A stretch of DNA of 64,000 nucleotides, from positions 620,001 to 684,000 of the forward strand of contig JAAOMT010000480.1 of NCBI GenBank assembly GCA_016748015.1. The letters run 5' to 3'. The notes under the pieces were generated by a model, which was not told the origin of the DNA, did no database searches, and saw nothing but the letters and a program-made list of their open reading frames with translations. Below are positions 1,381 to 63,307 of the stretch, piece by piece; the first letter of the stretch is position 1; every line of letters begins with the position of its first letter. The position numbers and the translations under genes were made by a program. Source of the stretch: Geosiphon pyriformis uo1 (Eukaryota > Fungi > Glomeromycota).

Positions 1381-3415
1381 TTTATTTTTTTTTAATGTTA
1401 AAATCTAGTTAAATAAATTATTAAGTTGTCTTTTTTAATAAAATGTTTTATTTGTTGTATTATTTTTTTGTAAAATATTTTTTTGGACTTGTTATTATAC
1501 AAAGTTTAAATATTCGGTTATTATTTCAAATAATAATAATATTATGTTATTTAAAAAAAAAATTATTTGTAAAACACTAAATATAAACTTAATATTTTCT
1601 AATAAAAAAAAAGTTTAAACTTAGTTAATGAGTTACTAATAGAACTTAAACAGAACTTAAATAAATTCTTCTCTTTAATTTACAATTTTTTTTACATAGT
1701 TATCTACTTATATTTATAGTTTATTATATAAAACTATTTAAATAGGTTTTTTTAAGTGTTTTTAAAGTAAATTTTTTAGCTATTAATTATTATTTTTATG
1801 TTTAATTTTTAATTTTTTAATATTTGAAATAATTATTAAATAATTGAGTAGATATTGTTTTTAATTTCTATTTTGTTAGTTATTTTGTTATATTTTAATA
1901 ATACTTATATATTTTTTTAATTTTGTAATATATTAATTTTAATGATAATAATTGGTTTTAAATTTTATAAAACTTTATCTAATTTAATCAGTATTTTTGT
2001 GTTTTTAATTATAATATATTAGATGTTGATAATAACTTAATATAAAATAATTATAATAAATTATTATATATTGCTTAAATTAAAATTTTTTTTTCTAATT
2101 ATAATTTATATGTTTTATTTTCAAGTATTTTTTCAATATAAAAAATTTATTTTACTTTATTGTTTTTTTGCTTTAATATAATATAATAATACTGTTTTTA
2201 ATCTTAAATTTAACTAGTTTGTTTAATAACTAATTATTATGTCTTTTTTTTGTTTTTTGTAATACTTTAATGTTATTAACTGTTTTTTTGTTTTTTAATG
2301 TTTTTATTAAGTTATATATTTGTTTTAATAATGTTTTTTAAAATATAATTTTTGTTATAAAAATAATATAATTAATAGAAATAATATTTTTTTGATTAGT
2401 AATTTTTTTGCCATATTAACAAAAATATTAATTTTTTTTTGTTTTTACTAAATTAATAAGATTATTTTAATCAAAGATAAAAATATAATTTGTGTTATTT
2501 TTACTAAACTATTTGAATTTCTGCTCTTTTAATAAATTAAAAAATATAATATATTGTTTGGTTTTGTAAATAGTATTTGAATTTTTGTTAGATTTAAAAA
2601 TAAAATTTAAATTAAATTACATTTTAATTCTAATTTTTTGGTTTTATTAATTAGTTTATTAATCTTAAAAATTTAATAAATAATATATAATAATAAATTG
2701 TAAATAAAAACACAATTATTACAATATTTAAAATAACATAAAATAAAACAATATTTATAAAATTGATCATTAAAACTAATGTCTTTGTTTTTGTTTTTTT
2801 GGTTAATATTAGTAATTAATAGTATTTATTAAATTTTACTAAATTATTAAACAGAATAAAAGATAAATCTTATATAAAAACTTTAACAAATTATGTTTTA
2901 ATAATATAAAGTTTTTTAATTATAATATTATTTTATTTTAATTAATATTTTTTAAATTTCTTTATTATATAAATAATCTTTTAAATATAAAAAATATAAT
3001 TGTAAATAGCTTGTATTAAAATATTTTATATACTTAGTTTTTTATAAAAAATATGTATTATTATAACTAATATAAAATGTGTTTTTTGTTGTTTAAATTT
3101 ATTAAAATATTTTAAAATATATAAATAACAATAAAACTTTATAAAAATTTGGTATTTTTTATTATTATCATAATATATATTTATATATATAAATTTTTTT
3201 TATAATTAATACAAATAAGTTTTAAGTATTTATATTTGAATTTTTTAAAAATATTATGTATTTAATTATTAGAAATTGTATTTTTTATTATTATTAATAA
3301 TTAACAAGTACAATTTAACTATTATCTAAGAATATAAAATCAAATAAGATTCTAAATTAAATATAGCTTATGCTTTTCTATATTTAATCAGCTACTTAAA
3401 TCAATTAAGGTAGTA

Positions 3416-10997: not shown

Positions 10998-11854
10998 TGT
11001 TATTAGAAATTTTTCTATTTTTTTTGTTCTTATTAATGCTATTTTGTTGTTAAATTTGTTGTTTCTAGAAACTAATAATTTTTAATAAGCTAATTTATCT
11101 ATTAAAATATTTTTTATACTTTGGAATATATATGCTATTGGATTTATAATAATATATAATTATTTTATAGTAAAAGTTAACTTTTTTACAATTATAATCT
11201 ATTTAATAATATAAAAAAAATTAAAATTTATAAAAAACAAAATAATAAGTTTAAAAAGATTATTTCAAATTCAGATCTAAAAATATTAATAGTTACTAAA
11301 ATTAATAACCAATTAATTTCAAAATATTTGTTTTAATAAATAAATTTAAAACAATAATATTTAAGAGTTTTTGAATTTTCAAGATAATTTTATTAAATTA
11401 ATTTGTAGTAACTAATTAATTTCTTTGGTAAAAATAAGATTCTGAATTAAAATTAATATATTTTTTCAAAAAAAAGCTTTTTTTTATACAACTTATTATA
11501 GTACTATTTTATAATTTATTATTATTATTATTTTAATATTTTAATAAACTAAAAATGTATTTTGTTAAACTACAAGTTATTTCTGTAAACTATAAATTAT
11601 TTTGGTAAACTGTTAGATATTTTGTCAAATTTTAAGAATTTTGACTATTATATATTTTAATATATTATATAATTTAATTATTATAATTTAGTTTTATATA
11701 TATTTTATAAAAATTAAGTTATTAATTGGATAAAAATTTGAATAATTTAATGGAATAATAATTAATAATTTAAAACAATAATATGTACTAAATAATAATA
11801 AAATTATAAAAATAATTTCATGCTAATTAATAATTTAAATTTTTATTGATAATA
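10998..11854 (-). repeat. E3 3' LTR (family A)
   Basis: Starts TGTTATTAG and ends TTGATAATA. Colinear with 46076-47048, but shorter because it lacks one copy of the internal duplication. Confidence 0.8.
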
Positions 11855-12535
11855 TAATTTTTTTCTTAAGATTAAACTTTATTAAAATCCAAGTATTGTC
11901 TGTAATTTTCAGATAGTAATCCAAAATTATTAAAGTAATTTAGTCTGAAAATTGTTAAAATTTTAGTTTTGTAAGCTTTTCAATGTATTAAATTTTCAAA
12001 AATTGCAAAATTGGATTTTGTAAGATGTTTTTACAAGTATAAAATAAATTATAAAGTCTAAAAACTGTTCTAATTTTGTAATAAGTATTTATTAGTTTAG
12101 CTGTTGTTTTGAATTTATTGTGGTCTTTAGATGATTTTTAGTATAAAATTTATTGTTTTAAGTTTTAATTTTCTTTTGCAAAAAAATTTTTATTATAAAA
12201 ATATCTATAAATTAAAGAATATTTATTGTTTTATTTGTTAAAACACTGTTAAAATTTTTGTTAAATTGTAGTATTTGGTAAAATGTTAATAAAAACAAAC
12301 AGCAAATTTTTTTTAAAGCTTGCTTTAAAAGTTTTAATAAGTAAATTTCAAAATAACTTCTTATTTTTTTATAAAAATAATAATTTCATATATTTGTTTT
12401 TAAAATTGTAATATATTTTGTTTAAATATAATTAATTTGGTTTTTAGTAATTGTTATAAATAATTCAGGAAATAATTTAAAGTTATATTAATTTCTAAAA
12501 TAATTATTAAATGTTTTAGGAAATAATTATTATAA
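11855..12535 (-). pseudogene. E3 accessory 3' ORF remnant
   Basis: Nucleotide-colinear with E1 47049-47737 (for example GTCTGAAAATTGTTAAAATTT and AATTGGATTTTGTAAGATG). Confidence 0.7.
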
Positions 12536-30475: not shown

Positions 30476-33073
30476 AAGAGCTTCTTTCTTCAAGAAAATG
30501 TATCTTACTTCAGATTTAATAATTAGAATCATCCTTTACACATAAAAACAAAATAAATATCAAATAAATTCGAAAAAGCCAAATTCTTAATTACTTCCTT
30601 CGAAATTAACCAATTCTTACTAACAGTTGAAATTGATTAGCTACCAATTTCAGTAGACTGTTAAAGCACTTCCAGGTCTGGATCTGAAACAACTTCCATA
30701 AATTACCAGTTTTACTTTTTCTTTTACATTTCTTTTATTCTCTTTCTTTTCTTATTATAAATCATTTGGGTAGCCTATGGACAAGAATTCCTGTAGAAGA
30801 GTTGACTTTTACAGCAAAGTAACTACACATTTTAGTAAGCTTTCAGACAAGCAATTCCTGGGAAAGAGTTGACATTTACTACAACATAACTATACAAAGT
30901 AACTGGCATGGAATTGGCCATTCCACTTATAAGCCCAGCAGTTCAAATTATAGGAGATAATTTGAAGATAAATTCAGTTATCGGAGGTTCAAACACTTCC
31001 CATAATCGTGAATTAACAGCATTACAACAAACATACAAGAGCTAAGAAGAGACCAAAAACCTCCAGTAACATCATCTTTTATATAAGAAAAAAAAGGCAA
31101 AAAAAAACTAATAAAGAACTACAAACATTAATATTAGTTTATTTAACTTTGAAATAAAAAAATCAATCATATCAATCTTGAAATTAATTTGTATTGATTA
31201 TAAAAAAAGTTATTTTTAATAGATACATGTGTTAAAAATAATAAAATATAATCAATTACTATCAGATACTATTACTATCTTTATATACTAAAACAATTTA
31301 AGTAATCAAAACAACAAAACAAATAGAATAATATGTTTTAAATATGACAAAATTTTATTAAATAAAAAACTATAGAATAATATTTCTGGCAAAAAAAAAC
31401 ATGTGACAAATTCTGTTAATATATTATTCTAATTAATAATTAGACCCAAAAAAAAATTTTATTTATTATAGTCTATAGTTAAACAATAAATTAACTAGAT
31501 TTATATCTTTATAATAATAATAAAATTTAGAAAATAATTATTGTAAAATGAAAAAATGCTATAAATAAGGAAATAAATATCATAAAAAATGTCTTGGTAA
31601 TTATAAAAAAAATGAATAATTTATTTATTAATAACTTTAAAGTATTTTAAGACCAGTATTAAAAACTTATTATTATTTAAAAAAAACAAAAACAAAAACT
31701 AGCCAATTTTAATACAAAACTGTACAATTATTGTTTAATTTTTTGTTATTTTTAGTATTATAATAAGTATAATATTTTATTTAATTTATTTTTATAAATA
31801 CTTTATTCTATTTTTAAGCTTAAAAAACTTATAAAAAAGTACACATTAGCAACAAAAAACATGATATTTTAAGAATTAAGTATTGTTATCAAAATAAAAC
31901 AGTACCTTGTCTATTTTAATTTCTTTAAAAAATTAGAACTAAAATATTATAACAATAAAAATAAAGACATATGTTTTAAAAAAACATATTCAAATAATGC
32001 TAGATTTAATTTAAGATATCTCAAACAATTTTTTATAGTTATAATATCTTATTTTTTTATAAAAATAGATTTAAAATTAGCTTTAAGAATTTTCATTAGT
32101 ATTATAATCTAAATTGCATTCTAATTTAATCTTATAAATAAAGAAATTAATATTAAAAAAGAAATAATTAATACTAGATATATTGAAAATATAATTATAA
32201 TATTTTAAAACAATTTTGATAAGTCTTATATAATTAAATCTTAAAAAAAAATCGCACAAATTATCTTTCTATTTTTCATACAAATTTTTTAACTAATTTT
32301 AGTAATTATGTAAAAAAAATTAGGTTTTATTACTTAAGAAATTCAAAAATTTAAGTCAAGTAGAAAAAGAAATATACAAGTTAGTTTCGTAAAAAACACT
32401 AATAACAAAGTAAAATTTATTTATATTAATACTGTTATTTTTATTTTTTTATATTAACAGTACATTTTGAAGATTAATCAAAAAGTTCAAAACCAAGTTT
32501 TACTATTTAATATGGTCTTAAAAATCTGTTTTCTAATTGATATTGCAAATTTGTATATATTTATCAAAGTTTATAAATATTTTAATATTCTTATTCACAA
32601 TTTTACTAAAAATATTATTAAGATTTTTGAAAAAACTCTCATTAATTCTATTATTTTAGATATTTAAAATTCTGAAAAATCTTTAATTTTACACAACTGT
32701 TCTTATTTTGCAATATTATTTTACAAATATAAAATTTGCTAAAAAAAAGCTATTTATTTATTATAAAAAAATCAATAAACTAAACTTGAAAAATTTAAGT
32801 ATCCTATAGCAAATAATTTATTAAAAGAAACAACTTAATATTATATTATAAAACAACATACTAATTGTATTTAGTATTTAAATATTGTTTAATTATACTA
32901 TTAAACAATTTACTAAAGACAATTATAGTTAATAATATAAAACAAATAACAAATTTACAATTTAAAGATCTACAAAAAGCAATACTTAATACAATAATTA
33001 AATATTATACTAAAAAAACAATTTTTATAAATACATATAATTTTGCAAAAACTTAATTCTAAAAAAAAAAAAA

Positions 33074-40400: not shown

Positions 40401-42092
40401 AAGTCTCTTTCCAAGAACCAAGCACTGATTTACAAGTCAAATAAAAGTTTAAAAGCATTAAAACTATATCTAAAACAAACTTATTACAATGCTTTCATAA
40501 TTTATTCAAGATGCCAGAAAAACTGGCAGCCTTCCTATTAAGCAGAGTTGAAATCACATTAAACATTTTAGTAAAACTAACCAAACACATTATATTTGAA
40601 AAAACATTATCAAAAACATAATCCAAAAGTTGATACTAACAAAACCAATCATTAGAAAGATCTGTAACCACTTTATGCTTCTGAGTCCAGTCTTTCATAA
40701 TTACATCTACTTTAGACTTAACAAAATTAGGCTTCAGAATCAGCTTATTGTTAATAATCAGATAGTCTAATACTATTTTGTAAAAGGGCCACTTTAATAT
40801 ACTCCTAATAATATAGTCTTTATTTACTACAAAATTCTCCATTCTTTTATTAATAATTGATCTGATTTGAGATTCTCTAGCATGCTCTAATTCTAGCAAT
40901 TTAGAGGAATAATAAAACTTTCTAACCTTAGCCAAAACAGATCTAACATTATTAAAATAAAATCTTAAAAAGAAAAAAAATTTACTACAGAAGCATTAAC
41001 AGCATCAAAACTTTTCCATTTAATCAGCAATGATGCAAACTTATTATAAAAAACTAGTTAAGAGGCCTTAACAATCTTAGACACCAGAAGTTCTAGTTTG
41101 TAAAACCTCGATGACTTTTTAGTAAAGACATTATTGTAGTTCTTGAACTATTTCTTTTTGAAAACTCTTTCAGTTAACAGATATATCATCTTGTAAATAA
41201 TATTTCACATCATGTTCAAATTCAAAAACTTCTTAGACTTTGTAAAATCATCAGAAAACATAGCAGTATTTGCCACCAAAGCTTCCTTGAACTTAGCTTA
41301 TTTAATATCATTCACATCTTTAAAATTGAACTTTCAATGATTTCTATTTGCATGTTTGTAAAAAGAGTTCAATTGCACATTCAATAATTCTCCCAGACCC
41401 ACTAACACAGAAACAGTTTAATGATCAGTATTAAAATAGTCACTAATATTCAATATATTATAACAAATCACTGTACTAACTAAGTTTGAGAATACAAATA
41501 TGTAATTAATAGTTTTTTCAGTATCCCTTAAAATTTTTCATGTGGGATTCTTTGCAACTGAACTACTTAACAAAGAATTGACCAAATCCAGATTGAGACA
41601 TTTCCTAAAACTAGCACATCTGTCTGAACTATCTTCATTAAAATTTCTATTCAAGATAACAAAAAAAGATTTACCCACAGCTTCTGTAATTAAAAAGTTG
41701 ACATTACTAACTTGAAATAGACACACATTTAGAGCAGCACCAGCATAAAGTCCCAAAATTGAAATGGATAACTTATTTTTGAAAAGCAGTTTAATTGACA
41801 AAAATCTATCAGCAATTTTTGAAATTTTGTACACATGTTTTGTCAAATCAACATTTATTATAACAACAACACTAAAGCCCAAATGACCAGATTCCAAACC
41901 AGAAGTAAAAACACAAATACCATTAAACTTGTTTATAATCCATAGATAAATCTTATCTTTCAATTTTATTTTAGTAATAATAGAAACCAAATTGTTTATT
42001 TTATTGTGCCAACAGATAATATTCTTTTGCTTAGCAGGATTGTTTATTCCTTTAATATTACATATGGCAATTTTTCACATTAGACTACTTAT
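37408..42092 (-). pseudogene. LINE C ORF2: AP endonuclease, reverse transcriptase, RNase H, C-terminal CCHC
   Basis: APE (KIAICNIKGIN; TKLK; RNFNED), RT (LIKTVCKIFSKIL; DMYKTYDFVGW; FINDTI), RNase H (VYTDEF; TKLQAI; FLNSQTAL) and CLFCGDVKVLNHAFSC. Confidence 0.9.
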
Positions 42093-43321
42093 TAAGAAGA
42101 AGTTTAAAGAAGCACACCATCAGCCAAAACCAAATTATCAAAGCAAATTGACAAGCAAAGAACTGAAACAGAGAAATCATCCAACATATTTTCCAATTTA
42201 ATTATTTCAGAGAGGACAAATGAGCCCAAAATTACAGCAGTTTTATCACTAATAGTTTTATCCAAGCTTTTTCTCATTATTACATCACTCATTTAATTCT
42301 GTAATGGAAAGGTCACTGGCAGCTGATATTTAGGGTTAGGCTAAGAAACTGCTAGCACAAGTGATTTTAATCTCTTAGCCAACTTACTTATTTGTCTTAC
42401 AAGACTAGTAAAACTGCTCTCAATATTAACCAAACATAATTCCAACTTATTAGCAATAGACAAAAAGGGTTTTATCTTTGAAGAGAAACCAGAATTAGTT
42501 AAACTATTTTGCACAGGTAAAGAGGAGAAAAAAAATTTACCAGCAATACTTGCTTATAAAGCACCACCAAAAGTGACCAGTTAAACAACAGAAATCGAAT
42601 GTTTGGCATAAATAGTGATCAGTCTGCTTTTATCTGTTTTTGAAAAGGCTTGATGTGATAAAGTACCAGAAAGAAATTTCGCACCAACTGTACAGTCTAA
42701 AGATATATAATCTGAATTCTTATATTTAGAACACTTAGCAGAAACCAGACAAGACCAGCACAGATTAGCACTCCTAAGTACTAGAGTAGTTTCTATAACA
42801 GCATCTAATAACTCAACAGAATTGAAACAAACAGTAGCATATTTGGCTCAAGCATATAAAATCTAATAATGATCAATGACACATGTTTTCTTATCAACAG
42901 AATTAATAAAATCTCATATGTTATAAGTATTAGTTTCTATTGGCAGAATATAAAGCAATATTCTATAACAATCTTTTGTGTTTCATGTTTTCTTGTTCAA
43001 GTCAGTTCTGGTAATTTACACAGTATTTTTTTTAATTAAAATAGACTATTTGGCTGCGACCAAATTAACATGATTTGAATGCTCAAATTTAACCACAGCC
43101 TTTTGTCAAAGTTCTATCAACTGTATTTTGATTGACATAGTTATCTCAAACTCAGACAACACAGTACACACAGTTTTAGCCAAAGTTCCAACTGGAATTT
43201 TTTTTACTACTACAGCCCAATCTGAATGCCCAGCATATTTTTTGAAATTGGTGTTTACCAAAATTTTCACACTAGTAGTCTTTTCAAAAGCCTGCACTAA
43301 ACTCGATTCAGAAGTAAATGT
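42089..43321 (-). pseudogene. LINE C ORF1, 3' part
   Basis: Fragments 43106-43297 and 42104-42292, plus a degenerate zinc knuckle (CSKYKNSDYISLDC) at ~42690-42735. Confidence 0.8.
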
Positions 43322-44192
43322 TGTTACTCATAAAATATAAGAAGTATATTAGCATATAAATTAGCCAATTAGAAGTAGCTGTAGTAAATGTGGAATTCCA
43401 GAATTTCTCTTAAAGGAATTGTAGAATTTCAAGAATTTCAGGATTCTTGTACAAAGAATTGCAGAATTCCAGAATTTCAGGATTTTTTTCAAAGAAATTA
43501 CAGAATTTCAGAAATTTCAGAATTCCTGGTATGAAGAATTGAGAAATTAAGAAATCTCAATTATGTATATATAATGATAGTATTAAAAGTAAAAAAAACA
43601 GACTTTTTCATTTAGATTTGATCTAAGCAACCTTCTACATTACAAATATTAATAAATAATTATTTGATATCTCAATTCACTCTTCACTATCAACACTTCA
43701 TGTTAATAATCTTGAATACTTAACCACACTGGAACAATAGTTCTTGATCACAGTTATTGATAGAATACTAACTATTATTGCCTTGGCTTATTTTTTTATT
43801 TTTTTTTATTTTTTATTTTTATTTTTTTTGTTGTATTAACTAATTAAAAGATTAAAGTGCTGAGTTATTAATGTCATGGATAGCTTGGTAAAAAACCCAG
43901 AGATAAGAGTAGAATTATATATATATTAACAGATAGCTTACTAAAAAGGCATGACTGCCAGATTAAACCTGTCATCATGTTGAAGACAAAAATTGGGAAA
44001 ACAACTTGAGAAATCAACCAAAACCAATCATAGTAAATTTTTGTCTATTATACAAAAAACTTGACTCAAAACCTTCAGATTACAAAAACCTTCAGATACC
44101 AACAACTTTCAGAGATTACCAAATATTATTCATTGAACACCAAGTTATGAGTTTGTTATTTGATTTGAGACTCCAAATAATCATTTGTAACA
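43322..44192 (+). repeat. E2 5' LTR (871 bp)
   Basis: TGTTAC...GTAACA; direct repeat of 62414-63307. Confidence 0.96.
43392..43555 (+). repeat. Tandem array in LTR-B: 8-9-bp GAATT(C/T)CAG units in ~39-bp higher-order repeats
   Basis: GGAATTCCAGAATTTC...GAATTGTAGAATTTCAAGAATTTCAGGATTC...; a second copy lies at ~62485-62675. Confidence 0.85.
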
Positions 44193-44194
44193 TT

Positions 44195-44211
44195 TGGTGC
44201 TCCCTATGAGG
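44195..44211 (+). promoter_or_regulatory. E2 primer-binding site
   Basis: TGGTGCTCCCTATGAGG lies 2 nt after the LTR. TGG is complementary to tRNA CCA. TGGTGCTC fits Ile(UAU)- or elongator-Met-type acceptor stems; the identity is not established. Confidence 0.85.
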
Positions 44212-46075
44212 TATAATCCAACAAAAAAACCAGCACCACAACACTTATCCAAAACAGTGACAGAATCCAAAGAAACAGAGACAAACCATTTGAAATTTGC
44301 AAAATTTTTATTCTAATATTATCACACCCACTTTGGATTAACAAATAATAATTGGCCAACAGAATCAGCTTTCAATTGTTATGTTAATGAAAAAATTGTA
44401 TATTACTTGAGAAGCCAAAAAGATCCAAAATCTGCCTTTAATAACTTTTTCAGTGAACTACTCTAAAGTACCACTCTTTCACAAAACTACTTATTTGTAC
44501 TTCTAATTACAGAAATAAACTGAAAAATTGAAAAATACACCAAGCAAAAATTCCCTATTACTTTTGCCAACAAAGAAAAAGGAAGGTTACAAACACTAGC
44601 AGAAACACCAAAGCAAATTCAATTATTCACTTAAAAGAAAAAAAGATTTTATTCATCTGCTAATTCATTATACCACTATATACCTAGAAGTATTATCAAT
44701 ATAATAAGCATGAATACAGCAAGTGGGACAGCACTATTAAACAGAATTCTGTTTCAAAGTAAACAAAAAAAAGCAGAGTTATTAGAAACATATGGAGATT
44801 ATTTTGAAAAATTTAAATCGCAATCCCTAATGCCATCAGGAATTTGATTACCACCACTACAACCAAATTTTGAAGTCATTAGTCCTTAAAAAATAACCAA
44901 CTCTGAGAAAGAGAAGAGTAGTAATCAGGAAATTAGCAAACAAAACCCAATCCTAGAAAATTCAGAAATTAAAACTTCAGTTAATCAAACTCCAAAAAAT
45001 CAGAATGATCAAAACCCCAATAGTATTACTCAGAAAAACTTACCTTCAGTAATTGTGATCAATCCACCTCCAGCTCCACCAATTAACAAACAACAACAAC
45101 AACAGTTACAACAACCACCCCAGCAGCAACTACAATAACAACCACAACAATAACAACAACTATTATTAATACTAATAGCATATGGACCTATTGCCAAAAT
45201 CGAGAAATTTACCAGCGAGGAAGACAACACCCAAGTATGGCTCAACAATATAGAAAAAGCCATTGTAGTTAATGGTTGAAATGATAACAGAGCCCTTCAA
45301 GCAATCCCTTATTTCTTACAAGATACTGTTGACTCATGGTATCAAAGTTTAGCCACCAAATCTCAAATGTTCCAGAAATTTAAAATTGCATTTTTGGAAT
45401 ATTTCAGTAATAATAACAGTATTAATCACCTAGCTAATGCATTTACCACAATTAAACAGAAAGAAACTGAAGCAGTCACTACTTACCTAGGATGCTTTTA
45501 CAGGAACTTGTGCCAAATCTAAGCCATCAACACCAATTATTTTACCATAGCCCAAATCTTGAATCAATTCATTCATAGATTACACAGCAACATTCTATAA
45601 TAAATACGTCCATTATATTCAGCCAACTTTTAAGCAGCAGTTATCCAAGCTAGAGATTTTGAAGCAGCTGAACTTAAAGCCAATTATGCCCAAGCTGTAA
45701 ATTTAGTAATAAACAGATCATCTGAATTGGATTCCAAATTAAAACAACTCAATAATTTAATTAATCAGAAATTAGAAAGATACTTAGCTGACAATCGTGT
45801 AATTTATCAGCCACCTCAATAACACAATAATTCTGGAAACATAAATTGTTTCCAAAATTAGTCGCATCCTGTTTTATCATTCAATCAGCTGTGACAACAG
45901 GAAATACATGCTTGCCACTATTGTGGTAGACAAGAACACTTGCAAATCAACTGCTGCCAACATTTAAATAACCAACAATCAGGAAATCAATATCAAAACT
46001 CCAATCGCCAGTCTCAAACTCCAAATTATCAATCAAACTCAGCTTCATATCAACCAACTTACCTGTCACTAACAC
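44206..46075 (+). pseudogene. E2 gag, 5' part (capsid-like domain and CCHC zinc knuckle)
   Basis: IAKIEKFTSEEDNTQVWLNNIEKAIVVNG, AIPYFLQDTVDSWY, IKQKETEAVTTYLGCF and CHYCGRQEHLQINC (~45910-45955). Start approximate. Confidence 0.85.
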
Positions 46076-47048
46076 TGTTACCAGAGGTTTTTGGTCTCTT
46101 TTCTTAAATGTTGTTAATGTTGATTTGCTGTAAATTCACGTTTTCAGAAAGTAGTTGGATCTTCAATAACTGAATTTATTTTTAAATTATCTCTTATAAT
46201 TTAAACTGCTGGACTTATAAGTGGAATGACCAATTCTGTGCCAGTTACTTTGTGTAGTTACATTGTAGTAAATGTCAACTCTTTCCCAGGAATTGCTTAT
46301 TTGGAAGCTCACTAAAAATGTGTAATTACTTTGTTGTGAAAATTAACTCTTCTACAAAAATCTTGTCTGTAGGCTAGCCTAATAATTATGATAAAAAAAG
46401 AAAAAAAAAAGAAAAAAAATGTAAAAAAAATAGAATTTTATCAAGAGAAACATTTTCTATTCAGGCCTGGAGTCACTAACAGATTACTGAAATTGGAAGC
46501 TAATTAATTTTAAAAACATTAGTTGTGTTGAGAAAATTTTAAAAGCAATAATCAAAGGTTTTGGTTTTCGAATATTTAATTTTTATTTGAATATATAAAA
46601 AGGTAATTTGTTTTAATTAAGATATCTAAAGTGAGATATTCTGTTAAAATACTATGAGAAAATACATTTTTTTAAAGAGAGAAGCTTTTTTTTTATACAA
46701 CTTGTTGTAGTACTAGTCTTTAAACTTGCACTTTTCTCTTTGCTACAATTTGGGTAAACTAATAATACATTTCGGCAACTATAAATTATTTCACTGAACT
46801 ATTTGATTATTTCGGCCAATTTTCATTAATTTCGGCGAATTTTGATTATGTTAAATGGTTCAGAATATTGTGTAATTTGATCATCTTAATTTCTAAAGTA
46901 CAAATTAGATTATTGATTGAATAATGATATTTGATAATTTGATTAAATAATAAGTAATAATTGAAATAATAATAATATATGCTAATTAATAATAGGAATT
47001 ATGAAGGTAATTTTATGCCAATTAATAGTTAAAATTCTACTGATAACA
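46076..47048 (-). repeat. E1 3' LTR
   Basis: Direct repeat of 55017-55989, preceded on the minus strand by the PPT. Confidence 0.96.
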
Positions 47049-47737
47049 TAATCTTCTCCTTAAGACTAAGCTCTATCAAAGTCCAAGCATTATTTGTGAT
47101 GTCAAGATAGTAGTTCAAGATAATTGAAGTGATCTGGTCTGAAAATTGTTAAAATTTCAGTTCTGTAAACTTTCCAATATATTGAATCTTTATTAGATAG
47201 AGTATTGGATTTTGTAGAATGTTTTCACAAGTGTTAAATAAATTATCAAGTCTGACTGCTGCTCTAAGTTTGTAGTGAGTGTTTGTTGGTCCAGCTGCTG
47301 TCTTGAATTCATTGTGGATTTGTTTTTGTATAGTCTTAAGAGTAGTGTTAGTTGTTTCAAGTTTCAGTTTTCGTTTATACAGTGTTTTTCCAATATGAAA
47401 ATATCTATATATGAGAGTATGTTCATTGTTCTGTTTATTAAGAAATAGTAGAAGTTTTTGTTGAATTGTGGCATTTGGTGGAATGTCAATAGGGGCAATT
47501 AAAAGATTTTCTTTCAGTGCTTGCTTCAAAAGTTCAAGTAATCTATTTTCAGAGTTAATCTCTTGTTTTTCTTCTATAAAAATAATAGTTTTGAGAATTA
47601 TTTACTACTGGAGCTGTTGTTTCTTTCTGAATGTAATTAATTTGACTTTTATTAATTGTTATGAATAAATCAGGAAGTGTTTTTAAGGCTAACATTAATT
47701 TTTGGGATATTTGTTGAATATTTCGGGGAATAATCAT
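47029..47737 (-). pseudogene. E1 accessory 3' ORF (~235 aa, unknown function); one frameshift and one CAA>TAA stop
   Basis: ORFs 47555-47737 and 47149-47529. The second frame continues past a TAA through the PPT into the LTR (…TLIELSLKEKIMLSVEF*). Confidence 0.75.
47049..47061 (-). promoter_or_regulatory. E1 polypurine tract
   Basis: AAGGAGAAGATTA lies immediately before the 3' LTR TG. Confidence 0.8.
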
Positions 47738-47949
47738 GATAAAATGACCAACTAACTAATAAATAAAAAGAATAAAAAAAAAATTATTTTTGGATGTGAG
47801 GGTTTTTATTTGTTTTTGGATTTGGGTGTTTCTTGTAATTATTTACTATTTTTGTTTTCTGTTTTTGTGTGTTATTAAAAAAAAAATTATTGTAAGAATA
47901 TGTTAAATTAAATATTCAAGTTTGGTTGTTGTTCTATTATAATTTTTGG

Positions 47950-49293
47950 TTCTAAATTTCAGAGAATATTTTCAGGATTAATTAAAGAAGAATGTGTACC
48001 AATTTGTGGAATTAATGGCTCAGAATTGTTTCTGGAATAATAGTGTTTTAATCTATTTTCATGTGCAACTTTTGCTAGTACTTTGTTATCAAGTCTTAAC
48101 TTGTATAAACTATTGCCTAGAATTTCATGAATATAAAATGGTTCATTTTATTTGTGTTCAAATTTTCTACTCCATTGTTTTTTAGCCTTAGTTCTATATA
48201 AGAGAACTTTATATCCAACTTTAAATTCGTTGGTAACTGGTGGTAATTTGTTGTCATGTCTTTCTTTTTATTGAGCTTGGAAGTGTTCAATATAAGTTGC
48301 TGCTATCTGTCTTTTTCCTTTCAATGTACTAAGAAGAGTGTAGGCTCTACTTTGGAGTGTTTCTTGAAAGTTTTTTTCATTGATTGGTTGTACTAGATAT
48401 GTTTCCACTGTGAAATTAATTGGTAATGTTGCTGTCCTTCCATAAGTTAAATCAAATGGTGTGTGTTTTATAATATCTTGTTTTAGTGTTCTGTATATTA
48501 ATAACACTAATGAAATAAAAATATCCCATTCCTGTTCAAAGTCTGTTGAGACTTTGGCTAAAGATTTATACAATGTTCTGTTGAAACGTTCTACAAGTTC
48601 ATTTGTTTAAGGGTAATAAGGTAATAATAAAGGTCTTTTGACATTGAATTGTTCACAAATTTTTTGTATCAGGTTGTTCACAAAATGTGTTCTTTGATCA
48701 GATAAAAGTTCAATTGGGCATCCATGTCTACAAATAATGTTTTCATAAATAAAATTTGCTACTGATTTTGCATTTGCTCTTTGGATGGCTCTAGTTTTAG
48801 GCTATTTGGTAAGATAATCTATTGCAACTACAATATAATGATTTTCTTGGGTTGTGATAGATAATGGTTCGACTAAATCAATTCCAATTTTGTCAAAAGG
48901 TTGTCCAACTTTGATTGGATTTAAAAGTTCTGTGGGGTGAGTTCTTTCTCTTCTTTGACAACTATCACAAGATTCTACATATTGTCAAATGTTTTTTTGC
49001 ATGTGAGACCAAAAATAATGTTCAAGAGTTCTTTGGATTGTTTTATCTCTTCTCAAGTATGCTGAAGATGGATCTGTGTGCATGTTGTATAGGATTGTTT
49101 CTTTTTTATTTTCCTGTACTAATCTGAATGATTGGTTTGGGTTTCTATAATTTTTGTAATAAATTTTGTTGTAGTGTATAAAATATTGTTTGAATTGGTG
49201 TTGTAATCGATGTTTTTTACTTGGAGACCAATTTTTTGGCATGGTTAGAGTCTCCAAATAGTTTTTAAAATTGTTGTAATTTCTGGAATCCAT
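47950..49293 (-). pseudogene. E1 integrase
   Basis: MHTDPSSAY…CDSCQ (HHCC), PFDKIGIDLV, LSDQRTHF, LVERFNRTL and a GPF-like C-terminal module. Confidence 0.9.
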
Positions 49294-49369
49294 TGTTGTT
49301 TGGTTGTTTTGTTGATAGTAGTAAGTTGTAGTGGATTTGTTGATGGTATTAATCTTATTTTATTCTTAA

Positions 49370-50700
49370 AAGGCTATTAACATTGGTGTGTAGTTTCCCT
49401 GGTTTGTGGTGTATAATATATTTGTAGTCTATTAAGAAGTCATTTCATCGAGACTGTTTGGCACTTTGTTCAGTTTTCTTTTTATTGAGCTATTTGAGAC
49501 CAATATTGTTAGTTATAATGTCAAATTCTTTTCCATTTCTCAAATATTGTTGAAAATGTTTAAGAGCCCAAATAACTATGGCAGCTTCTAGTTTTGTTGA
49601 GCCATATTTGAGTTCTGTTGGCTTAAGTGTTCTACTAGCATAGACAATCACTTGTTTCTGGCTATTTTTATTCAATTGTGATAAGATGACACCAAAAGCT
49701 ATGTGTGAAGCATCAGTAGCTAGTTGGAACTATTTGTTGAAGTCTAGGTAAGCAAAAACTGGGGCTGTTGTCAATCTTGTTTTCAGAGTTTTAAAAGCTT
49801 TTTGTTGTTTTTTTGTCTATTTGTATGGCACATTTTTGTTGGTAAGATAATTGAATGGTTTGGCAATTTTTGAAAATTCTTTAATGAATTTTTGATAATA
49901 AGAGACTAATTCTACAAATCCTTATAGCTCTGTGGTATTTTTGAGAGTTTGAAAGTTTTTGACAACACTGATTGTTCCAGAGTTTGGTTTGACTCCATCT
50001 TTGCTAATTATGTGTTCAAGAAAGATTAAGCTTGTTTTTTCAAAGTAATATTTCTTAATGTTCAACTTCAATCCTGCTTTCTATAATCATTAAAAAACTT
50101 CTCACAGGTGAATAAGATGAACTTCAAAGCTTGATAAGTACACATTAGTGTCATCAAGATAGACAACTACTGACTGCCATAAAAGTTTTTCATATACAAT
50201 ATTCATGAATCACTGAAATGTTACTGGTGTATTGCAGAGTCCAAAAGGCATAACATTGAACTTATAGTTTCCTTCTTGAGTAGTAAATGCTGTTTTAGAT
50301 TGATTTTTTGGATCTATTTCGACTGTCAGTATCCACTTTCCAAGTCTAAAGTTGAGAAAAACTTGGCTTTTCCTAAAGCATCTAGCATGTCATCAATTCT
50401 TGGAAGTAAATAGGCATCTTCAATTGTCATGCTGTTAAGCTGATAATAATCTATGCAGAATCTGATTTTTCCGTTTTTTTTTTAACAAAAACTACTGATG
50501 AGACCCAAGAACTTCTTGATAGTTGAATCAATCTATTACTGAGCATTTTTTGGACTTCTTCTTTAATAAATTGGTGGCTAGCAGGTGGAACTCAATAGAC
50601 TTATTGTCATTTTGGTAGAGCATTTCCTGTGTGGATTTGATGTTGAACAATATCAGTTTTTCCAAGGTTATTGTTGTTTTTTGCAAATATATCTGCAAAT
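49370..50700 (-). pseudogene. E1 reverse transcriptase and RNase H
   Basis: [35 protein letters not shown] (~50147-50167), ATDAS and YASRTL...LEAA. Confidence 0.92.
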
Positions 50701-51189
50701 TCAGCTATCAGTTGTTTTAATTGTCTTTGCTGTTGGGGTTCTAAGAGACCCATGTTAATTCGAGAGAGTTTTTCTTTCAAAAGATGGTAGTTTTCAGTAA
50801 TAGGAATGATATTTGAATTTGGGAGTAGAGTATGCCTTACAATTTCGATAAAATTAGAAACAATTTGAGGGTTTTTATCTTGAAAGATGTTACTGTATAT
50901 AATTCCAATCTCTAATTTGTTCAATAAGACAATGGAGTAATTATTGAAGTTGTAGAATATAACTCAAAATTTTTTCATTTCTTTGGAAATATAAACGTTT
51001 GGGATTAAGATTTCATGCTTCAAACAAATTTGTTTATTGGATTCAAAAATTTGTTGGGTAGTGGTGGGTTTTGAGCAAGTGTAAATTTCGTAATGTTCTC
51101 CAAAAAGTGAAATGGTAATTGGTTGAGAAAGTTGAAAAATTTGGTGAGATTTATTCTGTACATTAAGAGCTATGTTTACTGACACTGTA

Positions 51190-51635
51190 AATTGTCCAGT
51201 TGAACCAAAACCTTGTATTCTTCTTTTACTTTTTTCCAATTGTTCTCTGTTGTTAACTGATTGTAAACCTGAAATGTTGATTAAGGGTAGATAAATTGCT
51301 TGGGCAATTTTTTCAGCATGTTCAATCCTGAATGGTTTGTCTGTTTCATTCTGCAATATGATAATAATGTCTTCAGTATATCCTGCATCTATAATTCTTT
51401 CTCTAACATTAATTTTTTTGCTTGCCAGTAATGATTGAGAAGCAATTTGTACCATTGCTCCTAGTGGTATTTCAAGAGCAATTCTGAGGTTGATTTTGGT
51501 TATGAATTTTGGTTGAAGAACTAAAGTGTCTTTGTCAGAATATCTGAAGTTGTATTCTGTATCAATTTCATGAGCTTTTTCTGGTTTTATTTCTTGTCCA
51601 TTGTTGTCAAAGTATTTGAGTTGTATAGCAGGCTG
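51190..51635 (-). pseudogene. E1 dUTPase domain within the polyprotein
   Basis: In ORF 50964-52313: motif 1 DTEYNF (decayed DAGYDL), motif 2 SQSL (SRSS), motif 3 IIDAGYT, motif 4 EKIAQAI and motif 5 RRIQGFGSTG. Confidence 0.92.
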
Positions 51636-51734
51636 GTTTTCAGTAAGATAGATTGGTGTTGTTGTGATTTCTTTTTTTGTTTCAGGTTTTCCAAATTCGA
51701 TTTTTTTTTGGTCATTTTTACTGGGCAAGAAAAT

Positions 51735-52345: not shown

Positions 52346-52544
52346 TTAGTGGGATGTATGGTGGTTCTTTTCATAGTTCTGATGTGGAATACTAAACTTT
52401 CTTCTATCTTCTTGTTTTTTCAAAACTTTTTTGTTCTGTTTCCTTAGCCTAATTGAATGTTGATCCAAAAGCCATGTAGGTTTCAGTGAGTGGCATTTTT
52501 TTCTTCTTCTCAAATTCAAATACTGGGGCTTTTTCTGATTATTT

Positions 52545-55000: not shown

Positions 55001-55014
55001 ATAGGAGAGCACCA
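55000..55014 (-). promoter_or_regulatory. E1 primer-binding site
   Basis: TGGTGCTCTCCTATG lies 2 nt after the 5' LTR; same type as the E2 PBS. Confidence 0.85.
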
Positions 55015-55016
55015 AA

Positions 55017-55989
55017 TGTTACTAGAGGTTTTTAGTCTCTTTTTTTGAATATTGTTAATGTTGATTTGCTGTGAATTCACATTTCCAGGAAGTAGTTGGA
55101 TCTCCAGTAACTGAATTTATCTTCAAATTATCTTCTATAATTTGAACTGCTGGGCTTATAAGTAGAATGGCCAATTCTGTACCAGTTACTTTGTGTAGTT
55201 ACATTGTAGTAAACATCAACTCTTTCTTAGGAATTGCTCATCTGGAAGCTCACTAAAAATGTGTAGTTACTTTGCTGTAAAAGTTAACTCTTCTACAGAA
55301 ATCTTGTCTGTAGACTACCCTAATAATTATGATAAGAAAAGAAAAAAAAAATAAAAAAAATGTGAAAAAAATAGAATTTTATCAAGAGAAACATTTTTTA
55401 TTCAGGCCTGGAGTCATTAACAGATTACTGAAATTGGAAGCTAATCAATTTCAAAAACATTAATTGTGTTAAGGAAATTTCAAATACAATAATTCATGGA
55501 TTTGGTTTTCGAATATTTAATTTTTATTTGAATATGTAAAAGGTAATTTGTTCTAATTAAGATATCTAAAGTGAGATATTATGTTAAGATACTATAAAAA
55601 GATACATTTTCTTGAAGAGAAAAGCTTTTCTTTTATACAACTTGTTGTAGTACTAGTCTTTGAACTTGCACTTTTCTCTTTGCTATAATTTGGGTGAACT
55701 AATGATACATTTTGGCAAATTACAAGTTATTTCACTAAACTATTTGATTATTTCGGCCAATTTTCATTAATTTTGGCAAATTTTGACTATGTTAAATGGT
55801 TTAAAGTATTGTGTAATTTGATCATTTTAATTTCTAGAGTACAAATTGGATTATTGATTGAGTAATAATATTTGATAATTTGATTAAATAATAAGTGATA
55901 ATTGAAATAATAATAATGTATGCTAATTAATAATAGAAATTATGAAGGTAATTTCATGTCAATTAATAATTAAAATTCTACTGGTAACA
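55017..55989 (-). repeat. E1 5' LTR
   Basis: Direct repeat of 46076-47048, followed on the minus strand by the PBS. Confidence 0.96.
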
Positions 55990-57835: not shown

Positions 57836-58045
57836 ATCTACACAATTCTGGAAAAGAAAAAACCAATCAGCAGTTGTGCATCAGAATTGGAATCAACTTT
57901 CAATTCCAATTCAAACTCTGACAATGACAACAACAAAAACAATGGTTCCAGTTTCATTCAATATGGCAATGAAAATAACAATGATTCAGACTCCAATTCA
58001 AACCCTGAAACATACATAGTACTTCCTGATCTCTCTAAAAAGTAG

Positions 58046-60290: not shown

Positions 60291-60333
60291 GAAACAAATC
60301 TAAAAACATTTTGACTCAAAAATATAACAAAAA

Positions 60334-61710
60334 ATGAATATACAAAAATACCAACAACTCCAACATTATATAAATACCCAATTGTTCAAGAAGAAATTAT
60401 CTTAAAAAGAACAAAACAACATAAAACAACAATCAAAATATTTTATCAACTACCAAAATATACTTTACCAAAAAAACAGAAAGAATTCAGATCAACCAAC
60501 CAGAGTAATTACAGAACCAGAGAAAGAGACAATATTATTCAATATGCACTCAAATTCAACAGCAGGACATTTTTATAAAGAAGCAACCATGGAAAAAATC
60601 AGAAGAAGATACTATTGGCCATTAATATATCTGAACATTATTCAATATGTTCAAAGTTGTAATGCTTGTCAAAGAAGAGATGGAACAAAACCCAGTAAAT
60701 CATTAAAACCAATCAAAGTGGAACAACCATTTGATCGTATCAGAATTGACTTAGTTGGACCATTAACAATCACTAGCAAAGACAACAGATATATTGCAGT
60801 AGTCATAAACTATCTTACAAAATGGCCAGAAGCAAAAGCCATTCAAAAAGCAGATACAGAATTTGTTGCTGAATTTGTTTATCAAGATTTAATCTGTTGA
60901 CACGAATGTCTAAAAAAACTATTATCTGATCAAGAAATTCACTTTGTGAATAGAACATTGACAGAATTGAGTCAAAGATTTGGAATAAAAAGACTATTAT
61001 CATTATCATATCATCAACAAACAAATAGGTTAGTTAAATAATTCAACCAAACATTATATGAAGCAATAGTCAAAATCAGCCAAGAAAACCAGAATAAATA
61101 AGATTTGTTTATATTATCAGTATTATTTGCTTATCGAACAATAAAGCAAAACATAACACAAACAACACTGTTTGAATTAGTATATGGTAGAACAGCAATG
61201 TTACCAGTTAAGATAGAAGTTAAAACATATCCAACAGAACCAATAACAGAAGAGAATTTTCAAAGAACATTGTTAAAAAAAGCATATAACTTAATAGAGA
61301 CACTAGAAAACACATGACAAAGAGCAGCTGATAACATTCAAAAGTCACAAAAAAAACAAAAAAAAAGACACAATAATCAACTACCAGAGAAACCAGTTGA
61401 ATTTAAGATTGGAGACAAAGTATTTTTACATCGTACCAAAGTAGAAAAACAATAGAGTGAAAAATTTGACCCCAAATAGGACAGACCATTTTACATAGAA
61501 GAAATTTTTGGAAATGAAGCTTATAAATTAAGGTTGAACAACAAAATCTTAACCAAAGCAGCACATGGTAATTAACTGAAACAATATTACCATATAGCAT
61601 CAACATCTATCAGTAATATTTCACAATTAAAAGTACAGAGAATACTAGTCAAACCAAATAAGATTCTATGAGATCTAGAACCAATTATAATTATTGAACC
61701 AAACATATAA
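60334..61710 (+). pseudogene. E2 integrase
   Basis: MHSNSTAGHF…CNACQ (HHCC), IDLVGPL, LTKWPEA, LSDQEIHF and PK*DRPF (decayed PKWDGPF). Confidence 0.92.
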
Positions 61711-61749: not shown

Positions 61750-62399
61750 ATGACAAAAGACAACAGAAAATGGTGATTACTGACAGCATTCACTTACTAG
61801 CACAACAACTCTTTCAACTAATCCAACAATGAAAGATAGAAATTATAATTAACTAACAAACTATCAAATACACCAACACCAGAAAAGGAACACAAGATAA
61901 AATACAGAGAAAAACAGAAAACACTGTTGACAAAATAATCACAAAAGTGAAATTGGCAATAAAAACACAACCAAAAGTAATCCAATATTAAGAATTGACT
62001 ATAGAAACTTGGAATTAGTGGATGCAACAATTTCCAAGAAACTTTTGTTACTTTTATTTGAGACAACACTTGAACATTTAAGACTTGTACATGGATAAAA
62101 CAAAACAATTATTTGACACATCAATACTACAACAGCTAGAACAATTTGTGAAAAAAAACAATTTAACTACACAAGTCAGAGCCATTTATTGGCTATACAC
62201 CAGATTTCAAGATTGACTAGAAATCTTACTCAATTTAAAAATAGACTCTATTACCATTAACCAAATGAGAAAAATAACCAATGCTCAATTTGAAGACTTA
62301 CAGAACAAGATAGCACAAATAATTCTTGAAAAAAAAGTCCAAGAAATACTCAAAGATAAAGAATTAAAATTAGAAGATCTCGACAGAGCTCAATATTAA
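61750..62399 (+). pseudogene. E2 accessory 3' ORF (unknown function), disrupted
   Basis: The C-terminal frame reads YFYLRQHL…QVRAIYWLYTRF…ITINQMRKITNAQFEDL…EDLDRAQY* and ends at the PPT. Start approximate. Confidence 0.7.
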
Positions 62400-62413: not shown

Positions 62414-63307
62414 TATTACTCATAAAATATAGGAAGTATATTAGCATATAAATTAGCCAATCAGAAGTAGCCGTAGTAAATATAGAATTCCAGGATTTCT
62501 TTCAGAAAAATCACAAGATTCCTCTCAGAAAAATTACAGGATTCTAAGAATTTCAGGATTCTCATACAAGGAATTACAGGATTTCAATATTCTAGGATTT
62601 CTCTCAAAGGAATTGCAGGATTTCAGGAATTCCAAAATTCCTGGTATAAAGAATTAAGGAATTAAGGAATCTTAATTATGTATATATAGTGATAGCATTA
62701 GAAGTAAAAAAGACAGATCTCTCCATTTAGATTTGATCTAAGCAATTTTCTACATCATAAATATTAATAAATAATTATTTGATATTTCAATACACTCTTC
62801 ACTATTAACACTTCATATTAATAGTCTCAAATACTTAACCATGCTGGAACAATAGCTCTTGATTATGGCTATTAATGAAATACTAACTATTATTGTCTTG
62901 GCTTATTTCTTTATTTTTTTTTATTTTCTTTTATTATTTTTTTTGTTGTACTAACTAATTAAAGGATTAAAGTGCTGAGTTATTGACATCATAGATAGCC
63001 TGATAAAAGACCCAGAGATAAAAGTAGAATTATATATATATTAACAGATAGCTTAACAGAAGGACATAATTGCCAGATTAAACTGGCCACCATGTTGAAA
63101 ACAGAAATTGGGAAAATAACTTGAGAAATCAATTAAAACCAATTATAGTGAATCTCTGTTCATTATACAAAAAACTTAACTCAAAACCTTTAGATTATGA
63201 AAACCTTCAGATACCAACAACCTTTAGAGATTACTTAATATCATCCATTGAGCACCAAGTTATGAGTTTGTTATTTGATTTAAGACCCCAAATAATTACT
63301 TGTAACA
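62414..63307 (+). repeat. E2 3' LTR (894 bp)
   Basis: TATTACTCA (decayed TG)...TGTAACA, preceded by the A-rich decayed PPT at 62398-62413. Confidence 0.95.

What the first reader, a model, noticed from the sequence alone, without database searches (positions are those of the whole stretch)
47029..47737. Conserved accessory ORF between integrase and the 3' LTR in three Gypsy families
Seen: E1/E3, E2 (61750-62399) and E5 (~32815-33060) all have a sense ORF after pol that ends at or through the PPT. The copies are highly divergent but share a pattern: YF(H/Y)x(G)xxL…(L/V)RAxxxLxxxF…IxIxxxxKxTxxxFxx(L/F). I see no signal peptide or transmembrane segment, so it is not env-like, and it looks helical and partly basic. 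From memory it resembles abundant unannotated Glomeromycotina proteins (unverified). Inference: a transposon-encoded regulator or anti-silencing factor that may act on the family-specific LTR arrays. With the dUTPase and Cys-rich domain it would form a three-part accessory module in a genome that mutates repeats heavily. This is my best candidate for an undescribed system.
Basis: partly seen in the sequence, partly recalled or inferred. Interest (0 to 1): 0.8.

Follow-up and report, generated by a model that had tools for sequence, protein, structure and literature searches.

The report
Unnamed third gene of fungal retrotransposons
Several very different jumping genes of the Gypsy type in this fungal DNA carry, after their integrase, the same extra gene for a protein of no named family, which is predicted to fold into a compact helical domain and likely works in the nucleus as a switch for the element's own promoter, though that job is untested.

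Summary
The ORF is real. 47029-47737 (-) is a decayed copy (one frameshift, one stop) of a 210-240-aa gene between integrase and the 3' LTR of a Ty3/Gypsy element. Relatives lie at 11835-12487, 61770-62399, 32811-33020 and, newly, 1407-1883. Searches gave three Geosiphon pyriformis families and two metagenomic lineages, 22-36% identical. Each lineage is found by a profile of the other four (89-131 bits; shuffles at most 9). An intact 230-codon copy in an unrelated metagenomic element (L001) has the same position and also reads through the PPT into the LTR. Codon-position tests show protein-level constraint. No Pfam, PDB or fold match is significant, and there is no transmembrane segment or chromodomain. 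The model has a confident helical core. Four of five lineages carry a PY-NLS-like motif; only weak hints point to a ParB-type helix-turn-helix. These elements also encode integrase as a separate ORF with its own ATG. Best guess: a nuclear, LTR-directed transcription regulator (0.4). Anti-silencing and the three-part module are untested. Extra ORFs are a known kind; this family was not found in my searches.

The parts
47029..47737 (-). Accessory ORF3 of element E1 (family 1), decayed: frameshift near 47555-47575, stop at 47149-47151; last codons overlap the PPT and the first 20 nt of the 3' LTR
   Evidence: 84% identity to intact 221-aa Geosiphon copies
47738..47907 (-). G-poor, AT-rich spacer between the integrase stop and the ORF3 ATG (4% G, no ATG); does not align with the L001 spacer
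47908..49293 (-). E1 integrase ORF with its own ATG (H2C2, rve, weak SH3_Tf2-1; no chromodomain hit), with internal decay stops
49294..49351 (-). RNase H stop (49349-49351) and 55-nt G-free A/C-rich linker that puts integrase out of frame; same length in E3
51195..51518 (-). dUTPase domain between protease/Cys-rich region and RT in E1
   Evidence: PF00692 E 9.5e-11
47052..47061 (-). E1 polypurine tract, inside ORF3
46076..47048 (-). E1 3' LTR (TG...CA), with a short 20-bp-period motif array in U3 near 46770-46850
55017..55989 (-). E1 5' LTR, 90.8% identical to the 3' LTR, followed by a PBS-like sequence
61770..62399 (+). Accessory ORF3 of element E2 (family 2), six internal stops; ends just before the PPT
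60334..61710 (+). E2 integrase ORF with its own ATG after the RNase H stop
62414..63307 (+). E2 3' LTR with 39-bp array (62517-62634)
43322..44192 (+). E2 5' LTR with 39-bp array (43416-43545); E1 is inserted in the gag of E2; 4-bp target duplication around E2
11835..12487 (-). Accessory ORF3 of E3, an older, more decayed family-1 element
32811..33020 (+). C-terminal remnant of ORF3 in internally deleted element E5 (family 3-like or 2-like)
1407..1883 (-).

Best explanation
This is a conserved third gene of a fungal Ty3/Gypsy lineage, lying in sense between integrase and the 3' LTR, and its product is likely a nuclear protein whose predicted helical core would bind the element's own LTR DNA and raise its transcription. 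Shown: separate reading frame, fixed position, homology across five lineages, protein-level constraint, no transmembrane segment, and a separately initiated integrase ORF upstream. Predicted: an all-helical core at residues ~80-205, with two helices joined by a conserved G-x-x-N turn and followed by a basic helix carrying an invariant Arg. Inferred: expression from its own short transcript, since it sits behind two stops and a G-poor spacer; nuclear import through a PY-type signal in a disordered loop; family-specific recognition, because the start of the basic helix varies between families as the LTR arrays do. It would then work like foamy-virus Tas or plant VANC proteins without being related to them.
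For: Homology: hhalign family 1 vs 2, probability 89.8, E 1.8e-6, 182 colinear columns. Leave-one-lineage-out profiles score 88.7-130.7 bits against at most 8.8 for 300 shuffles each, 5 of 5 lineages; 16 invariant positions among the 5 representatives. Position: L001 has RT-RNase H, integrase, a 316-nt spacer and an intact 230-codon ORF that runs through the PPT into the LTR. P0220 ends in the same PPT/LTR-encoded residues, but its DNA was not seen. Selection: with the base-specific substitution spectrum held fixed, identical residues exceed the null in 5 of 5 ORF3 pairs (E1/E3 86 vs 73.2, 0 of 1000 permutations; E1/L001 45 vs 29.4), and the E1/L001 spacers do not align. Fold: mean pLDDT 77.9, 81-96 per block of ten over residues 71-200. 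Nuclear signal: R/H/K-x2-5-PY (consensus in the PMC2408616 abstract) in 39 of 86 family-1, 8 of 9 family-3 and 3 of 3 metagenomic proteins, against 6-11% in shuffles; it falls in the low-confidence loop. HTH hints: three ParB-family DNA-binding domains among the top 50 of 48,161 chains (Spo0J 1vz0 Z 4.5, rmsd 3.9, 87 aligned; KorB 1r71 Z 3.8; ParB 6s6h Z 3.3); DUF1016_N is the Pfam family hit by most family-1 members (6 of 40, best E 0.008). Family-specific short arrays lie near the start of both LTR types.
Against: No DNA binding, localisation or transcript was tested. All fold matches are below Z 5, in the range of common helical arrangements, and the ParB rows are tied with unrelated chains. 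Foldseek found nothing at E <= 0.001 in PDB or BFVD. A profile-profile test against 58 DUF1016_N sequences was not significant (probability 0.7%, E 0.08; 8 of 60 block shuffles scored as high). Family 2 lacks the PY motif (0 of 45). The two intact metagenomic proteins are net acidic. No promoter or splice signal is shared by the three spacers examined: a TATA-like word occurs in L001 and E2 but not in E1. Only 3 families pair a protein with an LTR, too few to test co-variation with the arrays. dN/dS of ORF3 is 0.22-0.58, above integrase in the two comparisons with L001 (0.47-0.58 vs 0.29-0.31), and is distorted by post-insertion decay and protein-guided alignment.
Confidence: 0.4

Rival explanations
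1. RNA-level factor: the protein binds the element's RNA and either exports it from the nucleus (Rev/CERV-like) or helps ribosomes reach the downstream integrase and ORF3 frames of this split element.
For: The elements have at least three separately initiated frames: RNase H stops and integrase begins with its own Met in E1, E2 and L001, and out of frame by the same 55 nt in E1 and E3. Such a layout needs special RNA processing or reinitiation. The PY-NLS-like motif and basic loop fit a shuttling RNA-binding protein. CERV of Cer1 is a precedent (PMC10309623, abstract and section 9).
Against: No RNA-binding family or fold was matched. The short G-free linkers (24-55 nt, no ATG) could allow reinitiation without a helper. 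No spliced transcript is known.
Confidence: 0.25
2. Integration helper: an adaptor that binds integrase or chromatin and brings the cDNA complex into the nucleus or to preferred sites, standing in for the chromodomain these integrases lack.
For: No chromodomain hit at the end of three integrases. ORF3 directly follows integrase in 5 of 6 places where the DNA was seen (E1, E2, E3, the site at 1407, L001; not E5). The PY-NLS-like motif fits. Elements are nested in repeats (E1 inside E2).
Against: No chromatin-reader fold was matched, and ORF3 is not fused to integrase in any DNA copy seen. Nesting is expected in a repeat-dense region anyway.
Confidence: 0.15
3. Captured host or foreign domain that interferes with host silencing proteins (RNAi or methylation machinery) by protein contact rather than by binding the LTR.
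For: The Atlas top hit is an unnamed Mucoromycota cluster (0.94, 176 of 256 features, 98 members). Repeats here are strongly CpG-depleted (o/e 0.09-0.12) and transition-mutated (81 of 88 LTR differences). CG methylation and small RNAs act on TEs in a related fungus (10.1101/2021.03.30.436303, passages).
Against: The Atlas recognition value (2186) is below the level at which high scores are reliable. phmmer over 1.84 billion representatives found no recognisable host family (35 hits). All copies in the window decayed regardless.
Confidence: 0.12
4. Env-like or membrane/movement protein.
For: It occupies the env position; sense ORFs there are often env-like (PMC7264820, main text).
Against: Maximum 19-residue hydropathy is 0.27-1.29 in 8 of 8 proteins. 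It is only 210-240 aa with a soluble helical model, and has no match among viral folds. HA2 and PRRSV_Env rows are at chance level.
Confidence: 0.03
5. No functional gene: a chance open frame or an integrase extension.
For: All five window copies are broken, and within-window E1/E2 similarity alone is weak. Some database gene models fuse it to integrase or dUTPase.
Against. A stop and a non-coding spacer separate it from integrase in E1, E2 and L001. The fused records are gene models whose DNA I could not see; they most likely reflect predicted introns or deletions (inference).
Confidence: 0.02

Closest known systems
Sense additional ORFs between pol and the 3' LTR (aORF-3S) of LTR retrotransposons (Vicient & Casacuberta 2020, PMC7264820; main text read, parts 1-2 of 3)
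   Same: Position, orientation, presence in many copies, conservation across families, unknown function.
   Different: The described sense aORFs are env-like, often with transmembrane segments, in plants and insects. This one is soluble, fungal, overlaps the PPT/LTR in some lineages, and matches no library family.
Foamy-virus Tas/Bel1 (PMC7390438, passages)
   Same: Regulatory gene of a retroelement made apart from gag-pol; Tas binds LTR and internal-promoter DNA and activates them. Pol there is also made separately.
   Different: No sequence or fold match. Here neither an internal promoter nor transactivation is shown, and the split is between RNase H and integrase, not between gag and pol.
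VANC anti-silencing proteins of VANDAL DNA transposons (PMC5735166, abstract)
   Same: Transposon-encoded, divergent between families, in elements with family-specific tandem repeats.
   Different: VANC belongs to plant DNA transposons and its demethylation is shown by experiment. No homology was detected, and nothing here shows demethylation.
CERV of C. elegans Cer1 (PMC10309623, abstract and section 9)
   Same: Novel, highly divergent accessory protein of an LTR retrotransposon, with a candidate nuclear signal.
   Different: CERV is 517 aa, spliced from the gag region, with H, M and G domains. ORF3 is ~230 aa at the 3' end and shows no such domains.
ParB/KorB/Spo0J-type HTH DNA-binding domains and Pfam DUF1016_N (PF17761)
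   Same: Weak fold rows (Z 3.3-4.5) and an in-register Y-x-x-I-G ... G-x-x-N ... R-x-Y motif likeness.
   Different: Not significant by profile-profile test. That DUF1016_N is HTH-like is recalled and comes from no call.

Membership tests
Ty3/Gypsy (Metaviridae) LTR retrotransposon (host element) | Direct TG...CA LTRs, PBS, PPT, short target duplication | tested here: met
   (E2 4-bp duplication exact; E1's differs at two transition sites)
Ty3/Gypsy (Metaviridae) LTR retrotransposon (host element) | Domain order protease, RT, RNase H, integrase | tested here: met
Ty3/Gypsy (Metaviridae) LTR retrotransposon (host element) | Integrase in one frame with RT-RNase H (canonical Pol) | tested here: not met
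   Stop and own ATG in E1, E2 and L001; same 55-nt out-of-frame linker in E1 and E3. A variant layout, not grounds to drop the superfamily.
Additional ORF, sense, 3' of pol (aORF-3S) | Separate sense ORF between pol and 3' LTR | tested here: met
Additional ORF, sense, 3' of pol (aORF-3S) | Present in many copies and conserved at protein level | tested here: met
   177 and 73 hits
Additional ORF, sense, 3' of pol (aORF-3S) | Transcribed (spliced or subgenomic RNA) | not testable with these tools
   No RNA data were at hand
Env / env-like protein | Transmembrane segment or signal peptide | tested here: not met
   Hydropathy maxima 0.27-1.29 in 8 of 8; no signal-peptide predictor was run
Chromovirus chromodomain / integrase extension | Chromodomain fused to the integrase C-terminus | tested here: not met
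   No chromo hit in 3 integrases or in ORF3; ORF3 is a separate frame
ParB-type HTH / DUF1016_N | Significant profile match | tested here: not met
   hhalign probability 0.7%, 8 of 60 shuffles as high; Pfam best E 0.008, below cut-off
ParB-type HTH / DUF1016_N | Same fold | tested here: inconclusive
   Z 3.3-4.5, tied with unrelated chains
VANC-like anti-silencing factor | Binds family-specific tandem repeats and removes methylation | not testable with these tools
   Arrays exist; binding and demethylation need experiments
Tas-like transactivator | Own internal promoter and LTR activation | not testable with these tools
   Spacer scan gave no signal shared by the three spacers

The most novel reading that the evidence does not exclude
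A lineage of 'complex' fungal Gypsy elements with three separately initiated frames (gag-pro-dUTPase-RT-RNase H, integrase, ORF3) encodes a sequence-specific DNA-binding protein of a new helix-turn-helix-like family. It recognises each family's own LTR array and keeps that family active against host methylation: a retrotransposon counterpart of VANC or Tas, and a source of programmable anti-silencing proteins.
Probability: 0.2. Interest if true: 0.8.

Novelty: new variant of a known kind. Interest (0 to 1): 0.5.

Why it matters
LTR elements expanded strikingly in Geosiphonaceae and Ambisporaceae (PMC11952901, passage). A conserved accessory gene is a concrete candidate for how, and an intact natural copy (P0221/L001) makes it testable. 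If it is an LTR-specific activator or anti-silencer, fungal retrotransposons would have reached retrovirus-like self-regulation independently. In practice, several hundred 'hypothetical proteins' in the Geosiphon annotation (177 + 73 + 8 hits, possibly overlapping) are copies of this transposon gene rather than host genes.

Tried and rejected
Pfam, PHROGs, NCBIfam and PDB-sequence scans gave no credible family. The FtsQ hits (NCBIfam best E 0.00046 in 5 of 15 members; PDB E 0.17) were rejected: the PDB rows came from the family-1 profile only, and the model is all-helical, whereas FtsQ is rich in beta strands (recalled). Importin-5, HA2, GA and others are at chance level. P0224 and P0225 are repetitive unrelated proteins and were dropped. 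Fold searches with the good model found nothing at Z >= 5 or E <= 0.001; this does not show the fold is new. The DUF1016_N profile test was negative; no ParB or DUF3102 alignment was built. tblastn against phages found nothing. Four scans of viral contigs found nothing. The last word-indexed search with the mixed alignment returned only 9 proteins and missed known members, so it says nothing about range. No RNA holder was listed. No whole genome was held, so copy number, intact window-species elements and genome-wide dN/dS were not measured. Only one Atlas search was answered. CpG retention in the E1 LTR array (4 of 6 CpGs of the 3' LTR, 1 of 2 in the 5' LTR) is too thin to count as protection. 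The ten paper searches showed no paper on this ORF or on a separately initiated Gypsy integrase. Subscription journals and Repbase entries are outside the library and no supplements were opened, so the TE library in the supplements of PMC11952901 may hold these families.

Full report
1. Setting. The window is AT-rich (11-34% GC per 2 kb) and packed with decayed retroelements. All 120 listed of 177 hits to the E1 ORF and all 73 hits to the E2 ORF are named Geosiphon pyriformis hypothetical proteins, up to 84% identical. The source is therefore most likely this fungus or a close relative (inference). E1 spans 46076-55989 (-) with LTRs 90.8% identical. It is inserted in the gag region of E2, which spans 43322-63307 (+) with an exact 4-bp target duplication. 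Of 88 substitutions between the E1 LTRs, 81 are transitions, and CpG observed/expected is 0.09-0.12.

2. The observation. The E1 ORF starts at ATG 47737 and stops at 47029-47031, with one frameshift and one internal stop. It reads through the PPT and 20 nt into the LTR. E3 (11835-12487) is an older copy of the same family. E2's ORF (61770-62399) ends just before its PPT. E5 (32811-33020) is only a C-terminal remnant that follows a dUTPase trace directly, with no RT or integrase found between, so its position is not shown. A fifth remnant lies at 1407-1883 behind integrase traces. From window sequence alone E1 and E2 are barely alike (Z 3.3, one shuffle higher).

3. Homology and range. Alignments of 40 family-1 sequences (39 of the 120 listed, plus the window frame) and 25 of the 73 family-2 proteins match over 182 colinear columns (probability 89.8, E 1.8e-6). 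phmmer over 1.84 billion representatives gave 35 hits. Twenty-nine are close, 50-88% identical; names were seen for four of them, all Geosiphon. Two belong to a third Geosiphon family, two are unnamed metagenomic proteins of 234 and 230 aa, and two are repetitive proteins that I dropped. The five lineage representatives are 22-36% identical and share 16 invariant positions. A profile built from four lineages finds the fifth at 88.7-130.7 bits in 5 of 5 tests, against at most 8.8 for 300 shuffles and below zero for reversed sequences. The contig of P0221 (L001) holds RT-RNase H, an integrase with one internal stop, a 316-nt spacer and the intact ORF, which also runs through the PPT into the LTR. 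L001's ORF bridges E1 (Z 22.6) and E2 (Z 15.9). Integrases of E1, E2 and L001 are about equally distant (49-52%), as are their ORF3s (27-34%). This fits inheritance from a common ancestor, with ORF3 evolving faster.

4. Selection. NG86 dN/dS is 0.22-0.58 over six ORF3 pairs; for E1/E3 it is 0.48 against 0.47 for integrase. These values are distorted by decay and by protein-guided alignment. I therefore permuted letters among sites with the same base in the first sequence. Identical residues exceeded the null in 5 of 5 pairs (p <= 0.002), including E1/E3, where the DNA alignment is unambiguous. Stops were fewer than the null in 4 of 5 pairs, not in E3. The spacers of E1 and L001 do not align (28 vs null mean 26).

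5. Protein. There is no transmembrane-like stretch in 8 of 8 proteins. AlphaFold2 on a 15-sequence, five-lineage alignment gave mean pLDDT 77.9. It shows a less certain N-terminal helix-hairpin part, a disordered basic loop (40-51) and a confident helical core (H82-93, H100-119, H126-141, H146-160, H177-181, H185-220). Invariant residues cluster in the core: Y102, Y104, G108, G142, N145, R155, F160, L167, G181, I195. G142-N145 forms the turn between two helices and R155 lies on the following basic helix, a helix-turn-helix-like arrangement (inference). Fold searches found no clear relative. The best Z was 4.7; three ParB-family DNA-binding domains are among the top 50 but are tied with unrelated chains; Foldseek found nothing significant. 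DUF1016_N was the commonest weak Pfam hit (6 of 40, best E 0.008), but a direct profile test against 58 such sequences failed (probability 0.7%; 8 of 60 shuffles as high). The loop carries R/H/K-x2-5-PY, the PY-NLS consensus (PMC2408616, start of abstract in a search listing), in 39 of 86 family-1 proteins of 200 aa or more, 8 of 9 family-3 and 3 of 3 metagenomic proteins, but 0 of 45 family-2 proteins of 150 aa or more. The Atlas placed P0221 nearest an unnamed Mucoromycota cluster (0.94), with a recognition value below the reliable range.

6. Element layout. In E1, E2 and L001 the RNase H frame stops and integrase starts at a Met in the same aligned position, after a 24-55-nt A/C-rich, almost G-free linker without ATG. 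E1 and E3 share a gap-free 55-nt linker that is out of frame, so this is not random decay. The element thus has at least three separately initiated frames. Two earlier AI notes report the same split elsewhere; they are leads only. The dUTPase (PF00692) lies between protease and RT, a position known from fungal LTR elements (PMC6431247, passage). The Cys-rich stretch has no Pfam hit. Nothing links either to ORF3 beyond shared residence, and L001 is too short to show them.

7. Mechanism. Shown: a selected, separate, soluble accessory gene. Most likely (0.4): a nuclear protein that binds its own LTR and activates it, as Tas does (PMC7390438, passages) or, if it counters methylation, as VANC does (PMC5735166, abstract). 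Short family-specific arrays lie near the start of the LTRs (20-bp period in E1, 39-bp in E2) and are candidate sites. Rivals: RNA export or translation helper (0.25; precedent CERV, PMC10309623, abstract and section 9), integration adaptor (0.15), inhibitor of host silencing by protein contact (0.12), env-like (0.03), no gene (0.02). TEs in a related fungus are CG-methylated and targeted by small RNAs (10.1101/2021.03.30.436303, passages), which makes counter-silencing plausible but does not show it.

8. Known versus new. Extra ORFs between pol and the 3' LTR are a known kind, and a regulatory role for them has been proposed (PMC7264820, parts 1-2 of 3 read). This protein family matches no library entry, and ten paper searches showed no description of it. 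PMC11952901 (passages) reports the LTR expansion in Geosiphonaceae; its three uses of 'ORF' concern methods. PMC12440569 (abstract, introduction, start of methods) and PMC5911963 (two passages) were read for a split integrase and gave nothing relevant. Earlier AI notes describe similar helical third genes in other windows; sequence look-ups returned none of them, so kinship is unchecked.

9. Verdict. Observation confirmed with corrections for E5; interpretation partly supported. New variant of a known kind; interest 0.5.

Noticed in passing
window 49294-49351 (-), about 13957-14015 (-), 60304-60333 (+); L001 772-798: Integrase is a separate ORF with its own ATG after the RNase H stop. The linker is short, A/C-rich and nearly G-free: out of frame by a conserved 55 nt in E1/E3, in frame in E2 and L001. 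This suggests reinitiation or a separate transcript.
   Followed up: partly
window 43322-63307 and 46076-55989: E1 is nested in the gag of E2. E1's flanks differ at two sites in a way that fits one 4-bp target site whose CpG decayed on opposite strands in the two copies.
   Followed up: yes
window 51600-52370 (-) and about 57150-57900 (+): Cys-rich stretch between protease and dUTPase in E1 and E2 (trace also in E5 at 31402-31809); no Pfam hit for the E1 stretch.
   Followed up: partly
window 28295-33040: E5 is an internally deleted element (gag, protease, Cys-rich, dUTPase, then the ORF3 C-terminus), interrupted by a family-1 solo LTR at 30083-31072.
   Followed up: partly
window about 37650-43300 (-): Long decayed element that reads like a non-LTR retrotransposon (endonuclease-, RT- and RNase H-like stretches by eye), with further copies at 34110-35914, 5378-6387 and 26285-27467; the Pfam scan of its short open frames found nothing.
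   Followed up: no
window 17874-19125 (+): Remnant with weak HTH_24 and DDE_3 hits, probably a Tc1/mariner-type DNA transposon inserted in E3.
   Followed up: no
window 44180-44210 (+) and 55000-55020 (-): E1 and E2 have nearly the same primer-binding-site sequence despite unrelated LTRs; the primer tRNA was not identified.
   Followed up: no
window 46770-46850; L001 3150-3310: Both the E1 and L001 LTRs have a roughly 20-bp-period array near their start containing a CpG-bearing word, in opposite orientation relative to the element; possibly chance.
   Followed up: partly
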